Source: an uncultured Alphaproteobacteria bacterium (GTDB taxonomy: Bacteria > Pseudomonadota > Alphaproteobacteria > HIMB59 > GCA-002718135). From it: DNA of 64,000 nt. The notes under the pieces were generated by a model. That model did not search any database. It was not told the DNA's origin and worked only from the letters and a program-made list of their open reading frames with translations. The stretch is taken from the NCBI GenBank assembly GCA_902576125.1, contig CACGUF010000002.1:145-64144 (forward strand), written 5' to 3'. This document shows, piece after piece, positions 4,761 to 14,200 of this stretch. Numbering within the stretch: the first letter of the stretch is position 1; the number at the start of each line of letters is the position of its first letter. A program made the position numbers and the translations under genes.

Positions 4761-6269
4761 TTAAGAATTCAATAATTTTCTCTTCCAAATATCATATGAA
4801 AGCTCAACAAAAAGATTTTTATTATCACCCAATACTTTACTAATCTCATTGTAAGTATTTCCTGGTCCACAGGAGTGATATTTATCTATAATTTCTGGAT
4901 ATTTAGCTAAAGTTGACTTGAAAGCTGAGCCGCTCATCCAATAGAAATATTTTTTCATCTTTGTATTTATTTCAAAATCAATACTTTCTAATTGATATGT
5001 ATTAATTTTATTTTTTATATGGCTTTCAGGTGATCCACTATGTGTTAACTTGACCCATGAAAAATTTGTAAGTGAATTGATATTATTTTCAAAATTTTCA
5101 CCAAGTCCATCAGAGCTGCCATTTACCCAAATTCCCTTAGCAATTAATTCTTTCCAAGTTTTTAAACCACTTGCCCAAACAATATTGTTTGTTTTAATTT
5201 TAGCTTTATCTTGAAGAGCACTAATGCGAGAAATATAAATACATTTATTTTCTATATTATTTACTTCAAAAATAGTTTTATCTAATTGTTTTCGATTAAA
5301 TATTTTGTAGGATTTTAAATTTTCTGGATATATTTCTTTTATATCCCCACAAGAATAATTTAATTTATGTTTACTTATGATTTCCCAGCTTTCAAAATGC
5401 TTACCATTTTCAACTTCCCCTCTTTTTGAAACAATTGTACCTAGTTTGTGAGAAATATAAGATACACCAATTTTTTGGTGACATCCACCGCCATATTTTT
5501 TTAAAATATTTCTTTCTTGATCAACATTTGAAAATTCTTGAGAAAAATTAATATGTTTTAATAAATCATTTAATTTATTATCTTTGCATCTAGTCTCAAT
5601 AGCCAGTGCGCCCTGACCTGGTGAACAAGGATTGACAGATAAAGGTAATATTGTCCAAATACATTCATCAATATATTTTTGTATAGTTTTTTTTAATTGA
5701 TTAAACTCAGAATAATTATTTAAAAGCAACCTATCTATTGCTGCTTTTGCTACAATAAAAGCATCACTTGCAGGATCTTCTAAAAACTTTTTAAATCTAG
5801 TAGGTATATTTCCTCTTATATTTTTAAAAATTACTTCATCATAATTTTGAGGAAGATAATTTTTGACAAAATTCATTAAATTATACTTTCTTCTAGGTGA
5901 GGAACAAAGAATAGTAAGTTTTTTATTATTTTCTTTTTTATTTTTTTTTAGAAATAATATATCTCTTTTGTCAGCTCTTTCTATTGTTGCTGATATTTTA
6001 GTTTTATTTCCAACTTCTATTGGTAAATCTTTCCAGGAATGAACAATCAAATCACATTTATTTTGGATTAATTCATCTCTTAAATCATTTGTAAAAACTC
6101 CTTCTAGAGGCATTTCAGAAAGAGGTGTAACTAAATCTTTATCACCAGATGTGCTTCTTGTTAAATATTCTAGTTTAGTTTTTGGAAATTTAGACTTTAA
6201 ATATTCTCCAAATTGATATGCTTGAATAACAGCTAAATCACTTTTTCTTGATAAAATTCGTATTTTCAT
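4761..6269 (-). CDS. hemC: Porphobilinogen deaminase with a ~200-aa C-terminal extension (possibly uroporphyrinogen-III synthase-like)
   Basis: Residues 1-300 follow the HemC layout (MKIRILSRKSDLAVIQA, HSWKDLP, IRGNIPTR, SPGQGALAIE, cofactor Cys in YGGGCHQKIG). The protein is 502 aa, whereas ordinary HemC is about 310 aa. Confidence 0.8.
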   Translation of the reverse strand: MKIRILSRKSDLAVIQAYQFGEYLKSKFPKTKLEYLTRSTSGDKDLVTPLSEMPLEGVFTNDLRDELIQNKCDLIVHSWKDLPIEVGNKTKISATIERADKRDILFLKKNKKENNKKLTILCSSPRRKYNLMNFVKNYLPQNYDEVIFKNIRGNIPTRFKKFLEDPASDAFIVAKAAIDRLLLNNYSEFNQLKKTIQKYIDECIWTILPLSVNPCSPGQGALAIETRCKDNKLNDLLKHINFSQEFSNVDQERNILKKYGGGCHQKIGVSYISHKLGTIVSKRGEVENGKHFESWEIISKHKLNYSCGDIKEIYPENLKSYKIFNRKQLDKTIFEVNNIENKCIYISRISALQDKAKIKTNNIVWASGLKTWKELIAKGIWVNGSSDGLGENFENNINSLTNFSWVKLTHSGSPESHIKNKINTYQLESIDFEINTKMKKYFYWMSGSAFKSTLAKYPEIIDKYHSCGPGNTYNEISKVLGDNKNLFVELSYDIWKRKLLNS

Positions 6270-9161: not shown

Positions 9162-9662
9162 TTAATTGCATACGCCAATAGAGCCAAGAGCACATTTTTT
9201 TCCATCCACCCATGTAGCACTAGATAAATTTGCTTCATCAAAAATTGCTCCTGAAATATTAGCTCCTAACAAATTAGCTTCATATAAATTAGCCCCTTTA
9301 AATGAAGAGGTAAAAAGATTCGCTCCTTCAAAATTAACTTTAGCAAGATTTGCATTTTCAAAATTTGCATTATTACAATTAGCCCCTTGTAAGTTAGAAG
9401 CATATAAATTTGAGTTACTAAAATTAGCAAAAATAAAATTGCCTACAGATAGATCAGAATTATTTAATTGTGATTTCTCTAAATTTGCTAAAGACAAATT
9501 AACTCCTGACATTTTAGCATCTGCCATTCCAACCCCAATTAAATCAAGGTTTTCAACAAAATTGCAATTTGTCCAATCAACTTCATTTGCAGGTTGATCC
9601 TCACATCCAGCGTATACAAAATTTGATGAAAATAATAATATAAAGAAAACTACAAATCTCAT
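9162..9662 (-). CDS. Secreted pentapeptide-repeat protein
   Basis: N-terminal signal peptide (MRFVVFFILLFSSNFVYA/GC) followed by about 25 tandem A(D/N)LxX-type pentapeptides (ANLEKSQLNNSDLSVGNFIFANFSNSNLYASNLQGANCNNANFENANL...). Confidence 0.85.
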   Translation of the reverse strand: MRFVVFFILLFSSNFVYAGCEDQPANEVDWTNCNFVENLDLIGVGMADAKMSGVNLSLANLEKSQLNNSDLSVGNFIFANFSNSNLYASNLQGANCNNANFENANLAKVNFEGANLFTSSFKGANLYEANLLGANISGAIFDEANLSSATWVDGKKCALGSIGVCN

Positions 9663-9702
9663 TAATTATAAATAAGTAAACTTTATGTTTAATTTAAGGC
9701 AG

Positions 9703-11595
9703 TTACCGTGAAGTAAGTTTCAATTCAATTCTTCTATTTTGCTGGTAATCTTCTTTAGTATCTCCATTACTTATGGGATAAAATTCTGCATATCCAGCAG
9801 CAGAAAGTCTTTCTGGAGGAAAACCAATTTCAAGTAGTAATTTCAAAACTGAATTAGCTCTTGCAGAAGATAATTCCCAGTTAGAAGGAAATTTTGAAGT
9901 TTTTATTGGTCTTTTATCAGTATGCCCTTCAACTTGAATTATCCAATCAATATCTTTTGGGATTTCATTTGTGGTCTCCATTAATTTAATCCCAATTTGT
10001 TTTAATTTTTGTTTTCCATCTTCTTGTAAATTTGCTGATGCAGAGTCAAAAAGTAACTCTGATTCAAATATAAATCTATCTCCAACTATTTTAATGTCAT
10101 CTCTCTCACCTAAAAGAGATTTTAATTTTCCAAAAAATTCTGAACGATATTTTTGTAGCTCAAAAATTTTTGATGTTAATGCTTTGTTTAATCTCTCTCC
10201 AAGTATTTCAATCTCTAGATTTTTAGAGGCAGTCTCTATCTCACTTGCTTCAAGGGCTTTATTAAGCGTCAATATCTCAATTTTTAGATTTTCAATTTCA
10301 TTCGAAAGAATTGATATTTGTTGTAAAGTTTCTGATGACTCAATTTCCATTTCCTTAATCTGATTACTTGAAATCTCATTTTCAGCAATCCTTTGACTTT
10401 CAACTTTTTCAATAGTTTTTTTAAGTGTTGCAATCTCTAATTCTTGCTCCATACTTTTTGCATCTGAGATTGATAAAACATTATTTAATTCTATAATTTT
10501 ACCTCTTAGATCAAAAATAGTTTTATCTTTATTTATAAGATTTTTATTTAATTTTGCTAATTCTTGATTCTTGGATCTAATTGCTTCAAGTTGTTCTTGA
10601 AGTGTTGCATCTTTTAAACCAAGGCTATCATTTATTTCTAGCAAGTCATTCGTTAGGTCTTGATATTGAGTTATTTGGTTTTGCAACTCTTCATCTCTTA
10701 AAGCTAATTCTACATTTGTTTGCTTTAATTCTAAATTTGCTTGCTCTAAAAGAGTAAGGGTGTTTTGTGTTTCTTCTTGAGAATAAATTAAATCTTGATT
10801 TAACTCTTCAAGTTGTTGATTTTTTGCTTTAATAGCATCTAGTTGTTCAATAATTCCACCATCTTCAATTCCTAAACTTTCATTTATTGCAAGTAGATTA
10901 TCATTTTTGATTTTAAGTTCTTCAATTTTAGTTTGGAGTATTTTCTCATTAGAAGCTAATTTTTTATTTACTAAATTTAATTCACTAATATTTTCATTTA
11001 AATTAGCTTCACTAATATTAAGTTTTTTATTTGATTCATCTAGTTTATTATTTAAAGTTTTAAGTTGATCTATTCTAGCAGCAAGAGCTTTATTGATTCT
11101 CTCACCTAATCCCTCAGTACTCAAAATAGTGCTATCAAGACCTTCGTAAACCTCTAGTGCTTTTGCAACAATTCTTAATTCATTTAAAAGGTCAGTAATT
11201 TGCCCAGATAGAGCAATTATATTTTGTTCTTGTACAAATATTTCAGTACTTTTTTTTGCTAAATCTGTTTGCAGTCCTTTAGAAATAAATTCTTGTTTCT
11301 GCAAATCTTGTTTTACACCACTTAAAGCAGACTCTGTTTCTGAAAGATTATTTAAAGCTTCTTCTTTTTCACTAATCTCAACCTGTAATATTTTAGACAA
11401 CTCACTTATTTGTAATCTTAATTCTTGTAACGCTTTATCTCTACCTGAAATAGCATCACTCAAATATATTTGAGAAACAGTAAAAACCATAAGAACAAAA
11501 ATTATTACAATTAATAATGTTGCTAATACGTCTACAAAACCTGGCCAAATATTTGTAGATTCACCAAGTCTGTTTCTTAAAGACCTTGATGCCAT
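9703..11595 (-). CDS. MotB/TolR-like membrane anchor fused to a ~430-aa coiled coil and a C-terminal OmpA/MotB peptidoglycan-binding domain
   Basis: N-terminal TM segment with an embedded Asp (WPGFVDVLATLLIVIIF). Residues ~45-480 are heptad-like and rich in E/K/Q/L/N. The C-terminus matches an OmpA-like domain (VGDRFIFESELLFDSASANL, VEGHTDKRPI, SNWELSSARANSV, NRRIELKL). Confidence 0.8.
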   Translation of the reverse strand: MASRSLRNRLGESTNIWPGFVDVLATLLIVIIFVLMVFTVSQIYLSDAISGRDKALQELRLQISELSKILQVEISEKEEALNNLSETESALSGVKQDLQKQEFISKGLQTDLAKKSTEIFVQEQNIIALSGQITDLLNELRIVAKALEVYEGLDSTILSTEGLGERINKALAARIDQLKTLNNKLDESNKKLNISEANLNENISELNLVNKKLASNEKILQTKIEELKIKNDNLLAINESLGIEDGGIIEQLDAIKAKNQQLEELNQDLIYSQEETQNTLTLLEQANLELKQTNVELALRDEELQNQITQYQDLTNDLLEINDSLGLKDATLQEQLEAIRSKNQELAKLNKNLINKDKTIFDLRGKIIELNNVLSISDAKSMEQELEIATLKKTIEKVESQRIAENEISSNQIKEMEIESSETLQQISILSNEIENLKIEILTLNKALEASEIETASKNLEIEILGERLNKALTSKIFELQKYRSEFFGKLKSLLGERDDIKIVGDRFIFESELLFDSASANLQEDGKQKLKQIGIKLMETTNEIPKDIDWIIQVEGHTDKRPIKTSKFPSNWELSSARANSVLKLLLEIGFPPERLSAAGYAEFYPISNGDTKEDYQQNRRIELKLTSR

Positions 11596-11597
11596 TT

Positions 11598-12638
11598 TTA
11601 TTTTTTTCTTTTAGAATTTAATTCTTGAATACTTTTATTCAAATCTGTGAATATCTTTCTTGTAGAAGCATCTATGATACCTTCATCATTTATTTTATTA
11701 ATAAGCTGTAAAATACTTGATTGAGTATTTAATTGAGTTGATAAAAAATTTGATAATTTTTCATCTAAATTTTTAGATTGATTATTTATATTTTTTATCT
11801 GCTGACTTAGTTGAGATAAATGATCATTAATTTGATTTTGATTTTCAGTTGTTTTTTTAAGAGAATAAACAACACTATCAAGATTGTCATATATTTTTTG
11901 AAGAGCTTCTCTATCTACATCATCAGAACCCGAATGATTGATTAAATCAGGTACAGAATTGCTATTTAAAACTTTCTCAAAAAATAAGCTAAATTTATTT
12001 TGTGCCTGTCCAAGATTAATATCCATAAAACCCAAGATAAGAGATCCTGCTAAACCAAGAAGTGAGCTGCTAAATGCTATACTCATTCCTTGAAGTGGAG
12101 CGTTTAATCCATCTTTTAATGAATTAAAAAAACCAGCGACATTTGTATCATCTATGCCAAGTCCGCTAATAACATTTCCAACGGAACCAATAGTTTTAAG
12201 CAAGCCCCAAAATGTGCCCAATAAACCAAGAAAAACCAACAAACCTACTAAGTATCTAGAAGTCTCTCTAACACTCGATAAAGACATATCAGTATTTTCA
12301 ATCAATCTAGTGATAGATGAGCTTTTAAAAACAAATCTTCCTTCAATCTGTTTTAATTCTTTTGTTATATTTTTTAAATATCCTGTATTATTTAAAAATG
12401 ACTGAGAGGATTTATTAATATCAAAATTTACTAAAGCTCCAAAATCTTTGTTAAGACCAACAAGTTTAATTAGGTTAAACAAAATACCAATAGCTAATGC
12501 TGCTAATATAATTAAATTTATAAAAATATTTGATAAAAAAGCTTCTTGAAGAACTGGATAAAGAAGTACAACAATTATAAATACAAGAGCTAAGAAAATA
12601 CCCACTCTTAATAAATATTGGCTTAAGCTTTGTGACAT
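11598..12638 (-). CDS. MotA/TolQ/ExbB-family proton-channel protein with a coiled-coil C-terminal tail
   Basis: Four predicted TM segments. TM3/TM4 carry the family signature (FLGLLGTFWGLLKTIG; AFSSSLLGLAGSLILGF). A ~110-aa Q/N/L-rich tail follows. The stop codon lies 2 nt upstream of the MotB-like start codon. Confidence 0.8.
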   Translation of the reverse strand: MSQSLSQYLLRVGIFLALVFIIVVLLYPVLQEAFLSNIFINLIILAALAIGILFNLIKLVGLNKDFGALVNFDINKSSQSFLNNTGYLKNITKELKQIEGRFVFKSSSITRLIENTDMSLSSVRETSRYLVGLLVFLGLLGTFWGLLKTIGSVGNVISGLGIDDTNVAGFFNSLKDGLNAPLQGMSIAFSSSLLGLAGSLILGFMDINLGQAQNKFSLFFEKVLNSNSVPDLINHSGSDDVDREALQKIYDNLDSVVYSLKKTTENQNQINDHLSQLSQQIKNINNQSKNLDEKLSNFLSTQLNTQSSILQLINKINDEGIIDASTRKIFTDLNKSIQELNSKRKK

Positions 12639-12694
12639 AAAATAATTTATATTAGTATATGTTTTTAATAAGTATTTTATACATCTAAATTATG

Positions 12695-13879
12695 TCAATT
12701 ATACATATAATTTCTTGTTAAGGGTAAATTAGTAATATTCTTCGCAATCTGGATTTGAAACACAACATTTCCCATATTAACAAATGAATATTTGCTTGCA
12801 AGTAAGTAAAACTCCCACATTCGATAAAAGCGTTCATCAAACATTTTAATAATCTGATCCTTGTTTTTTTTACAATTTCTATACCAATGGGTAAGCGTAT
12901 GGGCATAATGTAGTCTAAGAATTTCAATATCAGTTATATTAATATTTAGTTTTTGAGTTTCGTTTATAATATCAGACAATGAAGGAATATAACCTCCAGG
13001 AAAAATATATTTTCTTATCCACGGGCTTGTAGCAGTTGGTATGCCTCTCTGGCCAATAGTATGAAGTAAAAATATTCCATTATCCTTTAGTAATGCGTAT
13101 GTTTTTTCTAAGTAAGTTCTAAAGTATTTAATACCAACATGCTCAAACATTCCAACAGATACAATTCGATCATATGTTTGCACTTCATTTCTATAATCTT
13201 GTATCGCAAAAGAAACTTTTTCAGATAAACCCTCTGCTTGAGCTCTTTTTGAAGCAGTGGCAAATTGATTTTCAGAAAGGGTAATTCCTTTAACATTGGC
13301 TCCAGTTTGTTTAGCAATTTCTATAGCCATGCCTCCCCATCCACAACCTATATCTAATACGTTCATATTCTCTTTAATTTGAAGTTTATTGATTATATGT
13401 TTTTTTTTATCAATTTGAGCTTGGTTTAAGCTAATATTTTCATTGTGAAAATATGCGCAAGAATATTGCATATCTTTATCTAAAAAAAGTTTGTATAAAT
13501 CTTCCTTTAAATCATAATGGTGTGCAACATTTTGTTTTGATTTAACAGCCTCATTAAGTTGTTGAAAAATTTTAAAATATCCAGAGAAATTTTCATAAAT
13601 TCTATAAATAAAATTATTTCTAAGAAAATCATCGTAACATGATGTAATAAGATCAATTAATTCTTCTATTGTACCTTCTTCTATTAAAATTTCTTGATTC
13701 ATATAACCTTCTCCAAAATGAAGGCCAGGATTTCTGAATAATTTTTTTTCTATTGATTTAGATTTTAATCTAACTTTTAAATTTTTAGGTCCACTTCCAA
13801 AGTTTCGGATTTTATTACTACTATCAATAATTGTAATTTTTCCTTTAAAGTTAACTTTTTTAAGTACAGAATACAGCAT
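12695..13879 (-). CDS. cfa: Cyclopropane-fatty-acyl-phospholipid synthase family SAM-dependent methyltransferase
   Basis: CMAS family blocks (HYDLKEDLYKLFLDKDMQYSCAYF, VLDIGCGWGG, ITLSENQ, SVGMFEHVG, FPGGYIPS). Confidence 0.85.
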   Translation of the reverse strand: MLYSVLKKVNFKGKITIIDSSNKIRNFGSGPKNLKVRLKSKSIEKKLFRNPGLHFGEGYMNQEILIEEGTIEELIDLITSCYDDFLRNNFIYRIYENFSGYFKIFQQLNEAVKSKQNVAHHYDLKEDLYKLFLDKDMQYSCAYFHNENISLNQAQIDKKKHIINKLQIKENMNVLDIGCGWGGMAIEIAKQTGANVKGITLSENQFATASKRAQAEGLSEKVSFAIQDYRNEVQTYDRIVSVGMFEHVGIKYFRTYLEKTYALLKDNGIFLLHTIGQRGIPTATSPWIRKYIFPGGYIPSLSDIINETQKLNINITDIEILRLHYAHTLTHWYRNCKKNKDQIIKMFDERFYRMWEFYLLASKYSFVNMGNVVFQIQIAKNITNLPLTRNYMYN

Positions 13880-13975: not shown

Positions 13976-14200
13976 CTAAGCAGCAATGCGACGGTTTTTT
14001 TGAGCTTCTTTTTCTTTTTTTAGCTCTCTTTCGTCAATATAAGCAATATCACAATGCTCTTTGCAGTAAGGTTTGCCACTTAACGTATTTGCCTCACAAA
14101 AATGAAAATCTTTTTCTTGAGGATCGCCAATTGGCCACTGACAACTTGAAAATGTATGTGTGACTCTATTTTGCTTAAAATAATTTTTAATAATAGACAT
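13976..14200 (-). CDS. GcrA-family protein consisting only of the C-terminal domain
   Basis: CQWPIGDPQEKDFHFCEANTLSGKPYCKEHCDIAYI matches the conserved GcrA C-terminal block (C-x-WPxGDP...FxFC...PYCxxH...AY). The ORF is only 74 aa. AAGGA lies upstream of the ATG. Confidence 0.7.
   Translation of the reverse strand: MSIIKNYFKQNRVTHTFSSCQWPIGDPQEKDFHFCEANTLSGKPYCKEHCDIAYIDERELKKEKEAQKNRRIAA

What the first reader, a model, noticed from the sequence alone, without database searches (positions are those of the whole stretch)
9162..12638. Orphan MotA/MotB-type stator pair with a ~430-residue coiled-coil B subunit, followed by a secreted pentapeptide-repeat protein
**What the sequence shows.** Two reverse-strand genes lie 2 nt apart.
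- The first encodes a 346-aa four-TM protein with the TolQ/ExbB/MotA channel signature (FLGLLGTFWGLLKTIG; AFSSSLLGLAGSLILGF) and a ~110-aa heptad-like cytoplasmic tail.
- The second encodes a 630-aa protein with three parts: a MotB/TolR/ExbD-type N-terminus with one TM segment and an embedded Asp (WPGFVDVLATLLIVIIF); about 430 residues of uninterrupted E/K/Q/L/N heptad-like sequence; and a C-terminal OmpA/MotB peptidoglycan-binding domain.
- Forty nt further downstream on the same strand, with no visible terminator, is a 166-aa signal-peptide-bearing pentapeptide-repeat protein.
- No flagellar, Tol-Pal (tolA/tolB/pal/ybgC), TonB or gliding genes are adjacent.

**Why it is unusual.**
- An ion-driven 5:2-type motor is known to power flagella, Tol-Pal, Ton, gliding and Zorya defence.
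- Here the long rod sits on the periplasmic B subunit, which is the opposite of ZorA, where the tail is cytoplasmic and on the A subunit.
- At about 0.15 nm per residue, an extended 430-residue helix would be about 60 nm. That is longer than a periplasm, so it must fold back or lie along the wall.
- If the host is a non-motile SAR11-type cell, a stator-like motor with this architecture has no obvious assigned function.
Basis: partly seen in the sequence, partly recalled or inferred. Interest (0 to 1): 0.8.

Follow-up and report, generated by a model that had tools for sequence, protein, structure and literature searches.

The report
Wall-anchored ion motor with long rod
Two adjacent genes in an ocean SAR11 bacterium encode a flagellar-stator-like ion motor from a widespread but barely studied alphaproteobacterial family; here its cell-wall anchor sits on an unusually long coiled-coil rod whose length changes only in whole seven-residue steps, and what the motor drives is still unknown.

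Summary
A (346 aa, 4 TM), B (630 aa: one TM with an embedded Asp, a 438-residue helical rod, an OmpA domain) and C (166 aa, exported pentapeptide-repeat protein) lie 2 and 40 nt apart on the minus strand. The pair is not an orphan. B passes NCBIfam NF006543 (PRK09039, "peptidoglycan-binding protein"). A belongs to a family of more than 2,000 clusters found across Alphaproteobacteria, and the A–B gene order is conserved in about 69 of 79 loci. The non-flagellar "MotA/MotB" of Komagataeibacter hansenii belong to this family; they localise to the poles and affect cell length and colony spreading. A's predicted fold is closest to ZorA and ExbB, and the Thr/Ser/Asp ion-pathway residues are conserved. 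Pelagibacter has a separate TolQRAB operon. New here: the rod length varies from 137 to 445 residues across the family while keeping one heptad phase (23 of 40 distinct lengths, p≈3e-10). SAR11 strains differ only by multiples of 7 residues, and the SAR11 rod grew by internal duplications. The pentapeptide gene is a SAR11-only neighbour. Verdict: a real, uncharacterised variant of the 5:2 motor, with an extreme rod in SAR11. Its function is unknown.

The parts
11598..12638 (-). Gene A: 346-aa, 4-TM channel subunit of the MotA/ExbB/ZorA type
   Evidence: ORF. Four hydrophobic segments. AlphaFold pLDDT 87.1. Foldseek best matches are ZorA 8vvn/8qyk and ExbB 5sv0, then TolQ, with MotA/PomA weakest. 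PADLOC ZorA3 E=2.9e-15. 35 of 50 family members hit PF01618.
12024..12257 (-). A core, TM3 to TM4 (residues 128-205), with the invariant motifs GLLGTFWGL (Thr142) and MxxAFSSSLxGLAGS (Ser190/Ser192)
   Evidence: Invariant columns in the 50-sequence alignment. Aligns to Shewanella ZorA 8vvn_C residues 146-212, with the Thr and Ser conserved. The equivalent ZorA Thr147/Ser184 flank ZorB Asp26 (PMC11946911). Coordinates checked.
11601..11921 (-). A cytoplasmic helical tail (residues 240-346)
   Evidence: AlphaFold helices 240-317 and 324-345. Heptad-like pattern. Lacks the family's conserved C-terminal ...EIRLLxRTIAALAE helix.
9703..11595 (-). Gene B: 630-aa subunit made of a TM anchor, a coiled-coil rod and an OmpA domain
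   Evidence: ORF. NCBIfam NF006543 360.4 bits vs cutoff 305. Pfam OmpA. PADLOC ZorB3 E=2.5e-22. AlphaFold model.
11464..11547 (-). B transmembrane helix WPGFVDVLATLLIVIIF...; the Asp22 codon is at 11530-11532
   Evidence: The W-P-G-F/Y-V-D motif is found in 71 of 74 family B proteins. W17, P18, G19, V21 and D22 are invariant. Coordinates checked.
10150..11463 (-). B periplasmic coiled-coil rod (residues 45-482, 438 aa; about 65 nm if fully extended)
   Evidence: No proline, heptad pattern. Helical in the model, with four short breaks. Self-identity peaks at multiples of 7. The distance from the TM motif to the YRSEFF motif keeps one phase modulo 7 across the family.
10657..11055 (-). Length-variable part of the rod (residues about 181-313), where SAR11 strains differ by 7, 14, 21, 28, 35 or 56 residues; it overlaps the N-terminal copy (residues 205-271) and the start of the second copy (289-355) of an 84-residue internal duplication
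   Evidence: Alignment of 120 SAR11 homologues. Duplication 205-271 vs 289-355, z=12.7.
9706..10149 (-). B C-terminal peptidoglycan-binding OmpA-like domain (residues 483-630), with invariant GHTD, N572-x-x-L575-x-x-x-R579 and NRRIE
   Evidence: Pfam PF00691 E=1.4e-16. Invariant columns. The motif corresponds to the ZorB PG-binding residues N152/L155/R159.
9162..9662 (-). Gene C: 166-aa exported pentapeptide-repeat protein. A SAR11-specific neighbour, not a component of the family
   Evidence: Pfam Pentapeptide E=2.4e-21. Signal peptide ending A-G/A-C, five conserved Cys and about 26 consecutive pentads. Present after B in L001-L003 and L081-L082 only.
12671..12698 (-). Promoter-like site TTGACA-16-AATACT in the 56-nt gap upstream of A
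   Evidence: Consensus scan, 10 of 12 matches. This is a consensus match only; the number of sites in the region is no higher than in shuffled sequence.

Best explanation
A and B form a non-flagellar, ion-driven motor of the 5:2 kind (A5B2), belonging to an old housekeeping family of Alphaproteobacteria.

Proposed working:
- The two B chains place their conserved Asp22 helices inside a ring of A subunits. The conserved Thr142 and Ser190/192 of A line the ion path.
- Beyond the membrane, the two B chains continue as one parallel, register-continuous coiled-coil stalk. It ends in a dimeric OmpA domain that grips the peptidoglycan.
- With B fixed to the wall, proton flow would turn the A ring, together with its short cytoplasmic helical tail, around B.
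- The output partner is unknown. The only experimental data for the family (Komagataeibacter) point to a role at the cell pole or envelope that affects cell length and surface spreading.

In SAR11 the stalk has been tripled in length by heptad-preserving internal duplications and still varies between strains in whole heptads. A plausible reason is that the anchor has to cross the unusually wide periplasm of these cells.

Shown: gene architecture, family membership, conserved residues, fold similarity, heptad phase-locking, duplications, synteny.
Inferred: 5:2 stoichiometry, rotation, proton use, the parallel extended stalk, the link to periplasm width, and the physiological role.
For: - Architecture and domains.
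- A's fold is closest to ZorA/ExbB/TolQ. PADLOC ZorA3/ZorB3 hits. PF01618 hit in 35 of 50 family members. The core aligns to ZorA with the Thr and Ser conserved. The roles of those residues and of the B Asp were established for ZorAB (PMC11946911).
- The B Asp is invariant in 71 of 74 proteins. PG-binding residues are invariant.
- A-B adjacency in about 69 of 79 loci from at least 583 genomes, in housekeeping neighbourhoods (efp, suhB, rpmE, thiE).
- The rod keeps one heptad phase across the family: 48 of 67 loci, and 23 of 40 distinct lengths, p=2.7e-10. The exceptions are offset only by +1, +3 or +4.
- SAR11 indels are all multiples of 7. The model is helical. Internal duplications.
- Same family as K. 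hansenii MotA/MotB, shown by primer-encoded termini. Those proteins are polar. Overexpression gives longer cells and 3-fold more spreading; knockouts are viable and give the opposite cellulose phenotype.
- A separate TolQRAB operon exists in Pelagibacter.
- The SAR11 periplasm is reported to take up to about 70% of cell volume (PMC8168909).
Against: - No multimer model or experiment shows a 5:2 assembly or rotation for this family.
- The window's own A does not reach any Pfam or NCBIfam cutoff.
- Foldseek TM-scores are modest (0.35-0.58) and E-values only about 1e-3 to 1e-4.
- The B monomer model has low-confidence breaks, so the rod could fold back rather than extend (pLDDT 68.9, pTM 0.33).
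- Rods of 431-435 residues also occur in two non-SAR11 lineages of unknown cell geometry, which weakens a SAR11-specific periplasm argument.
- The K. hansenii phenotypes come largely from overexpression and are indirect.
- The SAR11 A has lost the family's conserved tail end, so any cytoplasmic coupling may differ there.
Confidence: 0.6

Rival explanations
1. It is a divergent or relic flagellar stator (MotAB), kept or decaying in a lineage that lost its flagella. Several databases name the proteins this way.
For: Database names such as 'flagellar motor protein MotA' and 'chemotaxis protein MotB'. A has the 4-TM MotA-like topology and B is a one-TM OmpA-type protein. NCBIfam MotD/MotS/MotB models hit the OmpA domain.
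Against: - The Mot models match only the C-terminal OmpA domain and score far below their cutoffs.
- MotA/PomA are the weakest of the 5:2 fold matches (E about 2e-2, against 4e-4 for ZorA/ExbB).
- The TM2-TM3 loop is only about 65 residues.
- The pair sits among housekeeping genes, never beside flagellar genes, in the loci examined.
- It is conserved with invariant catalytic residues in streamlined, non-motile SAR11 and in non-flagellated Komagataeibacter.
- It also occurs in genera generally known to be flagellated (Azospirillum, Bradyrhizobium). That they carry separate true stators is my own knowledge and was not tested here.
Confidence: 0.05
2. It is a minimal Zorya-like anti-phage sensor: a wall-anchored ZorAB-type motor that detects envelope damage and signals through its cytoplasmic tail.
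For: - The best profile hits for both proteins are Zorya type III models (ZorA3 2.9e-15, ZorB3 2.5e-22).
- The best fold matches include ZorA.
- A has a cytoplasmic helical tail.
- The strain-level length polymorphism of a periplasmic structure could reflect an arms race.
Against: - No ZorC, D, E, F or G-like partner; C has no PADLOC hit.
- The neighbours are heme, lipid and translation genes in conserved synteny.
- The pair is spread across an entire class in core-genome context.
- The tail is 107 residues, whereas the ZorA tail is about 70 nm long.
- ZorB's PG-binding domain is fused to the TM helix without a linker, whereas here a rod of 137-445 residues intervenes.
Confidence: 0.07
3. It is a Tol/Ton-like envelope tether rather than a continuously rotating motor. 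B combines, in one chain, the roles of TolR (Asp helix), TolA (long periplasmic helix) and Pal (OmpA-type wall binding). The proton-motive force gates attachment of the inner membrane to the wall at poles or division sites.
For: - The domain order TM-Asp, long helix, OmpA domain.
- Fold similarity of A to ExbB/TolQ.
- Polar/bipolar localisation and cell elongation on overexpression in K. hansenii, resembling TolQ overexpression as those authors noted.
- In at least 20 loci outside SAR11, a further secreted OmpA-domain gene sits directly upstream.
Against: - This overlaps heavily with the best explanation and differs only in the mode of output.
- Nothing tested here separates gating from rotation.
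- A true TolQRAB operon already exists in Pelagibacter, so any role would be additional to it.
- A has 4 TM segments, against 3 in TolQ/ExbB.
Confidence: 0.2
4. A, B and the pentapeptide-repeat protein C form a three-part machine, with C as the periplasmic partner of the rod.
For: C follows B by 40 nt on the same strand with no terminator-like site. It is exported and cysteine-rich. The arrangement holds in all six SAR11 loci examined, down to 63-64% A identity.
Against: - C-like genes are absent next to the pair in about 76 non-SAR11 loci. The only other hit is an unrelated 308-aa protein on the opposite strand.
- The whole block GcrA-cfa-A-B-C-EamA-hemA is syntenic in SAR11, so adjacency may simply reflect frozen gene order and the short intergenic gaps of a streamlined genome.
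Confidence: 0.1

Closest known systems
Komagataeibacter hansenii 'MotA/MotB' (Jacek et al. 2019, PMC6570709)
   Same: The same protein family. A is a 4-TM protein of 348 aa and B is a 1-TM OmpA-type protein of 321 aa; they are adjacent, in a bacterium without flagella. The primer-encoded termini (MTRPTTY; MARRSR......EFRLTDR) equal those of the Acetobacteraceae members in my set.
   Different: The K. hansenii B is the short form (321 aa), shorter than the shortest B in my set (rod 137 residues) and far shorter than the 438-residue rod here. The SAR11 A lacks the conserved tail end. The published work is phenotypic (polar GFP, cell length, spreading, cellulose texture) and treats the proteins as motility genes, without a mechanism.
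NCBIfam NF006543 / PRK09039 'peptidoglycan-binding protein'
   Same: B scores 360 bits against a cutoff of 305. Its N-terminal TM region and residues 331-630 match the 350-position model.
   Different: About 280 extra rod residues lie between the two matched stretches. The family name says nothing about the motor partner or the function.
ZorAB, the motor of the Zorya anti-phage system (PDB 8qyd, 8vvn)
   Same: The best fold and profile matches. The Thr/Ser pair around the B Asp is conserved. The B domain binds peptidoglycan and is of the OmpA type. A has a cytoplasmic helical tail.
   Different: The ZorA tail is about 70 nm long; here it is 107 residues. ZorB's wall-binding domain joins the TM helix directly; here a 20-66 nm rod intervenes. 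There are no ZorC-G partners. The context is core genome, not a defence island. A has 4 TM segments rather than 3.
Flagellar stator MotAB/PomAB
   Same: A has 4 TM segments. B has one TM segment with an Asp, followed by a C-terminal OmpA-like wall-binding domain. The two genes are adjacent.
   Different: No flagellar context. No large cytoplasmic torque domain. In place of MotB's plug and flexible linker there is a coiled coil that starts right after the membrane. This is the weakest structural match among the 5:2 motors.
TolQR-TolA-Pal and ExbBD-TonB
   Same: A's fold resembles ExbB/TolQ. B's long periplasmic helix recalls TolA domain II, and its OmpA domain recalls Pal.
   Different: TolR/ExbD have a different periplasmic fold and need a separate TolA/TonB. 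Pelagibacter has its own TolQRAB operon elsewhere. A has 4 TM segments rather than 3.

Membership tests
PRK09039 / NF006543 peptidoglycan-binding protein family (B) | Whole-protein score above the curated NCBIfam cutoff | tested here: met
   360.4 bits vs 305.
PRK09039 / NF006543 peptidoglycan-binding protein family (B) | N-terminal TM helix with the WPGFVD motif, a coiled coil, and a YRSEFF motif followed by an OmpA domain | tested here: met
   Motifs at residues 17-22 and 483-488. They are invariant across the family.
Alphaproteobacterial A-B module (including K. hansenii MotA/MotB) | A MotA-like 4-TM gene immediately upstream of B on the same strand | tested here: met
   2-nt gap here. About 69 of 79 loci have B within a few bases downstream of A.
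5:2 ion-driven motor superfamily (MotAB/ExbBD/TolQR/ZorAB) | The A subunit matches the MotA_ExbB channel domain (PF01618) | tested here: inconclusive
   The window's A gives no PF01618 hit, but 35 of 50 family members do (best E=7e-7). PADLOC ZorA3 hits the window's A at 2.9e-15.
5:2 ion-driven motor superfamily (MotAB/ExbBD/TolQR/ZorAB) | The A subunit's fold resembles solved A subunits | tested here: met
   The 25 best Foldseek hits shown are all ZorA, ExbB or TolQ chains (probability 0.99-1.00, TM-score by target 0.33-0.58).
5:2 ion-driven motor superfamily (MotAB/ExbBD/TolQR/ZorAB) | A universally conserved Asp in the B TM helix, and polar Thr/Ser residues on the adjoining A helices | tested here: met
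   D22 is invariant. T142 and S192 are invariant and S190 nearly so. They align to the ZorA Thr and Ser.
5:2 ion-driven motor superfamily (MotAB/ExbBD/TolQR/ZorAB) | A5B2 stoichiometry and ion-driven rotation | not testable with these tools
   Only monomer prediction was available. No experiment has been reported for this family.
Flagellar stator MotAB | Genomic and functional association with flagellar genes (FliG rotor) | tested here: not met
   No flagellar genes among the neighbours here or in the SAR11 loci. The recurrent neighbours elsewhere are housekeeping genes. K. hansenii has no flagella.
Flagellar stator MotAB | A large cytoplasmic TM2-TM3 torque domain in A, and a plug plus flexible linker in B | tested here: inconclusive
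   The loop is about 65 residues. The B helix continues from the TM segment directly into the rod. MotA/PomA are the weakest fold hits. No residue-level comparison with MotA R90/E98 or with the MotB plug was made.
Zorya defence system | Adjacent ZorC/D, ZorE or ZorF/G partner genes | tested here: not met
   C has no PADLOC hit. The flanking genes are cfa, GcrA-like, EamA and hemA.
Zorya defence system | A long ZorA cytoplasmic tail (about 70 nm) | tested here: not met
   The tail is 107 residues. The ZorA tail length is taken from PMC11946911.
Zorya defence system | The ZorB PG-binding domain is fused to the TM helix without a linker | tested here: not met
   A 438-residue rod lies between the TM helix and the OmpA domain.
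Tol-Pal / Ton motor | It is the genome's TolQR or ExbBD, linked to tolA/tolB/pal or tonB | tested here: not met
   No such neighbours. TIGR02796 tolQ scores 13.8 bits against a cutoff of 221. A separate TolQRAB operon is conserved in Pelagibacter genomes.
Pentapeptide-repeat proteins (C) | Pfam PF00805 score above the gathering threshold | tested here: met
   75.4 bits vs 20.2. About 26 consecutive pentads.

The most novel reading that the evidence does not exclude
The family is a previously unrecognised class of rotary 5:2 motor in which the fixed B dimer is a rigid, phase-locked coiled-coil strut that spans the periplasm. The strut would act as a molecular ruler or torque arm between the inner membrane and the wall. 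Its length would be tuned to periplasm width in whole heptads: about 20 nm in ordinary Alphaproteobacteria and about 65 nm in SAR11, whose periplasm is exceptionally large. Length differences between strains would then be an adaptive trait of the ocean's most abundant bacterium. The motor would power a housekeeping envelope or polar process that has no counterpart in E. coli.
Probability: 0.2. Interest if true: 0.85.

Novelty: new variant of a known kind. Interest (0 to 1): 0.62.

Why it matters
Ion-driven 5:2 motors are known to power flagella, Ton uptake, Tol-Pal division, gliding and Zorya defence. This family would add a conserved, non-flagellar, housekeeping example that databases mostly mislabel as MotA/MotB or name only as a 'peptidoglycan-binding protein'. 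It is kept in the streamlined genome of non-motile SAR11, which argues that it does something important. The phase-locked, length-variable rod offers a directly testable handle: insert 7 residues versus 3 or 4. It also gives a possible sequence readout of periplasm geometry in uncultured bacteria.

Tried and rejected
- Literature searches for 'PRK09039' and for MotA-like/MotB-like proteins in Alphaproteobacteria returned nothing relevant. Two searches failed on term syntax.
- The 2025 survey of MotAB evolution (PMC12505986) describes its non-flagellar 'GIT' B subunits as lacking OmpA homology, which does not fit this family.
- The profile search of full-length A against the PDB was swamped by coiled-coil noise such as apolipoproteins and designed bundles; ZorA reached only E=0.04. 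Restricting the query to the TM core gave the useful alignment.
- BLASTP of B against itself at E=1e-3 found no repeats. Smith-Waterman alignment with shuffled controls did.
- The exact look-up of the 100%-identical B (P0271) found no contig on record.
- The SAR11 cryo-tomography paper itself is not in the library. Only a secondary citation of periplasm volume was available.
- I could not tell whether the rod is extended or folded back: the monomer model has pTM 0.33 and its coordinates could not be inspected.
- Rejected: ordinary Tol/Ton system, flagellar stator, Zorya system, and an obligate three-gene unit with the pentapeptide protein. Reasons are given under the rival explanations.

Full report
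**1. The observation**

- A: 11598-12638, 346 aa
- B: 9703-11595, 630 aa
- C: 9162-9662, 166 aa
- Gaps: 2 nt between A and B, 40 nt between B and C

A has four hydrophobic segments, and its AlphaFold model is confident (pLDDT 87.1). The model shows a TM1-TM2 hairpin, a loop of about 65 residues, the long helices that carry TM3 and TM4, and a helical C-terminal tail (helices 240-317 and 324-345).

B has one TM helix with Asp22 (WPGFVDVLATLLIVIIF) and a Pfam OmpA domain at residues 515-621 (E=1.4e-16). Between them lies a proline-free, heptad-patterned stretch. AlphaFold predicts this stretch as helix from residue 18 to 495, with four short breaks at 153-162, 241-248, 326-329 and 373-377.

C is a Pfam pentapeptide-repeat protein (E=2.4e-21). 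It has an export signal ending VYAGC, five conserved cysteines and about 26 consecutive pentads.

No terminator-like site separates B from C. A promoter-like hexamer pair sits in the 56-nt gap upstream of A, but this is only a consensus match. The window has about 29% G+C. Its housekeeping proteins cluster with ones named Pelagibacteraceae, so the host is a SAR11 bacterium.

**2. The pair is not an orphan**

B exceeds the curated cutoff of NCBIfam NF006543 (PRK09039.1-2, 'peptidoglycan-binding protein'; 360 vs 305 bits). The model matches B in two stretches, the best one at residues 331-630, so the middle of the rod is extra sequence relative to the 350-position model.

A has no curated family, but it is far from alone:
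- It has thousands of near-identical marine relatives.
- An exhaustive HMMER search found 2,116 clusters at 50% identity, many of them full length at 30-43% identity.
- A scan of one genome per species found at least 583 loci. Nearly all are Alphaproteobacteria (Azospirillum, Nitrospirillum, Bradyrhizobium, Devosia, Acetobacter, Asaia, Kordiimonas, Tepidicaulis), with a few labelled as Desulfobacterota, Beta- or Gammaproteobacteria.

In 79 loci where A could be located, a B homologue lies immediately downstream in about 69. Most exceptions are at contig ends.

Public names for the two proteins are inconsistent. B is called 'peptidoglycan-binding protein' or 'chemotaxis protein MotB'. [quoted passage not shown]

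**3. What kind of machine it is**

Evidence that A is a 5:2-motor channel subunit:
- The window's A does not itself reach Pfam PF01618, but 35 of 50 family members do.
- PADLOC Zorya models hit both proteins (ZorA3 2.9e-15 over the TM core; ZorB3 2.5e-22).
- A Foldseek search of the A model against the PDB returned only 5:2-motor A subunits at the top: ZorA (8vvn, 8qyk) and ExbB (5sv0) at E of about 4e-4 to 1e-3, then TolQ, with flagellar MotA/PomA weakest at about 2e-2.

Evidence that the ion pathway is conserved:
- In the family alignment, the motifs GLLGTFWGL (Thr142) and GMxxAFSSSLxGLAGS (Ser190/Ser192) are invariant or nearly so.
- They align to Shewanella ZorA residues 146-212, with the Thr and Ser conserved.
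- In E. coli ZorAB the equivalent Thr147 and Ser184 contact the essential ZorB Asp26 and act as the ion filter (PMC11946911).
- The B-subunit Asp sits in a W-P-G-F/Y-V-D motif found in 71 of 74 family members. The three misses are ORF-calling artefacts.

Evidence that B binds the wall: the wall-binding residues of the OmpA domain (GHTD, N572-x-x-L575-x-x-x-R579, NRRIE) are invariant. They correspond to the ZorB residues whose mutation abolishes peptidoglycan binding.

So the parts needed for an ion-driven, wall-anchored 5:2 motor are all present and under selection. The stoichiometry and the rotation are inferred, not shown.

**4. What it is not**

- **Not the Tol motor.** The tolQ model scores 13.8 bits against a cutoff of 221. 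No tolA, tolB or pal genes are nearby. A recent analysis of 135 complete Pelagibacter genomes lists a conserved TolQ-TolR-TolA-TolB operon as a separate block.
- **Not a flagellar stator.** The neighbours here are cfa, a GcrA-like gene, msrA, an EamA transporter and heme genes. In other lineages the neighbours are efp, suhB, rpmE, thiE and an ABC exporter. The window holds no A or B paralogue.
- **Not a Zorya system.** There are no partner genes, the tail is 107 residues against about 70 nm in ZorA, and ZorB has no rod.

**5. The one piece of experimental literature**

Jacek et al. (PMC6570709) studied 'motA' and 'motB' of Komagataeibacter hansenii. This member of the Acetobacteraceae has no flagella, and these were its only motility-like genes. 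A is a 4-TM protein of 348 aa, B is a 1-TM OmpA-type protein of 321 aa, and the two genes are adjacent.

Their cloning primers encode the gene termini:
- A starts MTRPTTY
- B starts MARRSR
- B ends EFRLTDR

These are the termini of the Acetobacteraceae members of my family. Asaia platycodi, for example, has A starting MTRPTLYLLRM and B running MARRSRRSS...RRIEFRLTDR. So this is the same family.

Reported results:
- Overexpression gives elongated cells, about three-fold wider colony spreading on soft agar and a looser cellulose network.
- GFP fusions of both proteins are polar in short cells and bipolar in long ones.
- Disruption mutants are viable and make denser cellulose.
- The authors noted that the energy-receiving partner is unknown.

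**6. The rod: the new result**

*Within SAR11.* Among the 120 closest SAR11 homologues of B, the lengths are 588, 623, 630, 637, 644, 651 and 707 aa. Of these, 117 differ from 630 by a multiple of 7. In the alignment, every indel class inside the rod (reference residues about 181-313) is 7, 14, 21, 28, 35 or 56 residues, apart from one 8-residue singleton.

*Across the family.* I measured the distance from the invariant Trp of the TM motif to the invariant Tyr of YRSEFF in 67 loci.
- The rod ranges from 137 to 445 residues (median 197). That is about 20 to 66 nm if fully extended.
- 48 of the 67 loci, or 23 of the 40 distinct lengths, fall in one residue class modulo 7 (binomial p=2.7e-10 on distinct lengths).
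- No other period from 3 to 11 is enriched.
- The off-class lengths are offset only by +1, +3 or +4. These are the classic coiled-coil skip, stammer and stutter. The three remaining classes are empty.

So length is free, but the heptad phase between the membrane helix and the wall-binding head is fixed. This is what a single, continuous, register-dependent coiled coil would produce. A flexible linker would not.

*How the SAR11 rod grew.* It expanded by in-phase internal duplication.
- Residues 205-271 and 289-355 are copies, offset by 84 residues, or 12 heptads (z=12.7).
- A second copy of the family's conserved rod-end motif LGERxNKAL is stranded at residues 163-171. The first 136 or so rod residues therefore look like a complete ancestral rod (z=7.7).

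SAR11 is not the only lineage with a long rod. Two unrelated alphaproteobacterial MAGs reach 431-435 residues, and several others reach 300-340.

**7. How long is too long?**

Even the shortest family rod, at about 20 nm, exceeds that. The stalk must therefore tilt, pass through the wall or fold, or else these envelopes differ from E. coli's.

SAR11 cells are reported to devote up to about 70% of their volume to periplasm (PMC8168909). As a rough estimate of my own, that gives gaps of tens of nanometres in a cell about 0.2 µm wide. A stalk of about 65 nm is then not absurd. This link is an inference. I could not establish whether the rod is extended or folded back, because the B monomer model has pTM 0.33.

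**8. The pentapeptide protein**

C follows B in the window and in all five other SAR11 loci examined: L001-L003 (A identity 63-84%) and L081-L082. No C-like gene follows the pair in about 76 other loci. In SAR11 the whole block GcrA-cfa-A-B-C-EamA-hemA-cytb561-hemC-hemE-hemH is syntenic, so adjacency alone is weak evidence of a shared function.

Outside SAR11 a different gene recurs. It encodes a secreted, proline-rich protein with a Pfam OmpA domain and lies directly upstream of A on the same strand in at least 20 loci. In eight of them it overlaps the A start by 4 nt. SAR11 lacks it.

**9. Verdict**

The sequence observation is confirmed. This is a real stator-like ion motor with a long periplasmic coiled coil and no assigned mechanism. 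It is also a member of a large, database-named and lightly studied alphaproteobacterial family, and the pentapeptide gene is a lineage-specific neighbour.

My best explanation (confidence about 0.6 for the architecture, much lower for the physiological role) is a wall-anchored A5B2 proton motor. Its B dimer forms a rigid stalk, and its output lies in the A ring and its cytoplasmic tail. It would serve a polar or envelope process.

I rate it a new variant of a known kind, with interest 0.62. Specialists in 5:2 motors would find the architecture and the phase-locked rod notable, and the latter gives clean experiments. The family was not unknown, however, and its function remains open.

Noticed in passing
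L004, L015, L016, L023, L025, L030-L032, L048-L051, L055, L056, L058, L063, L065, L071, L072, L075 (gene directly upstream of A): Outside SAR11, a secreted, proline/alanine/lysine-rich protein with a C-terminal Pfam OmpA domain is encoded directly upstream of A on the same strand. In eight loci it overlaps the A start by 4 nt. It may be a third component of the system (a MotY-like wall anchor?). SAR11 lacks it.
   Followed up: partly
window 11601-11921 (A tail) compared with alignment A1: The SAR11 A proteins end about 35 residues early. They lack the family's conserved last helix (...ELRxEIRLLxRTIAALAE), which most other members have. Any cytoplasmic coupling may therefore differ or be lost in SAR11.
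   Followed up: partly
L081 9043-10915: In one 1.6-Mb SAR11 contig, the B gene is called as two ORFs (46 aa and 568 aa). This is either a frameshift from long-read assembly or a real disruption of B in that strain.
   Followed up: no
L068 compared with L032: Two loci labelled Asaia carry B proteins of 517 and 335 aa. Rod length can differ greatly between closely labelled taxa, unless the MAG label is wrong.
   Followed up: no
window 4761-6269 (-): The hemC ORF is 502 aa, but the HemC model covers only residues 3-273. The extra 230 or so C-terminal residues could be a fused domain, such as uroporphyrinogen-III synthase. The gene lies in a heme cluster (hemA, cytochrome b561, hemC, hemE, hemH) beside the locus.
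   Followed up: no
window 13976-14200 (-): A 74-aa ORF matches only the C-terminal third (positions 114-164 of 173) of the cell-cycle factor GcrA. It is conserved at the same place in other SAR11 genomes (Pfam GcrA in L081 and L082). It looks like a miniaturised GcrA.
   Followed up: no
window 9166-9597 (+) and 9971-10363 (+): Long antisense ORFs (143 and 130 aa) lie inside genes C and B. They are most likely by-products of the repetitive, AT-rich coding sequence on the other strand rather than genes.
   Followed up: no
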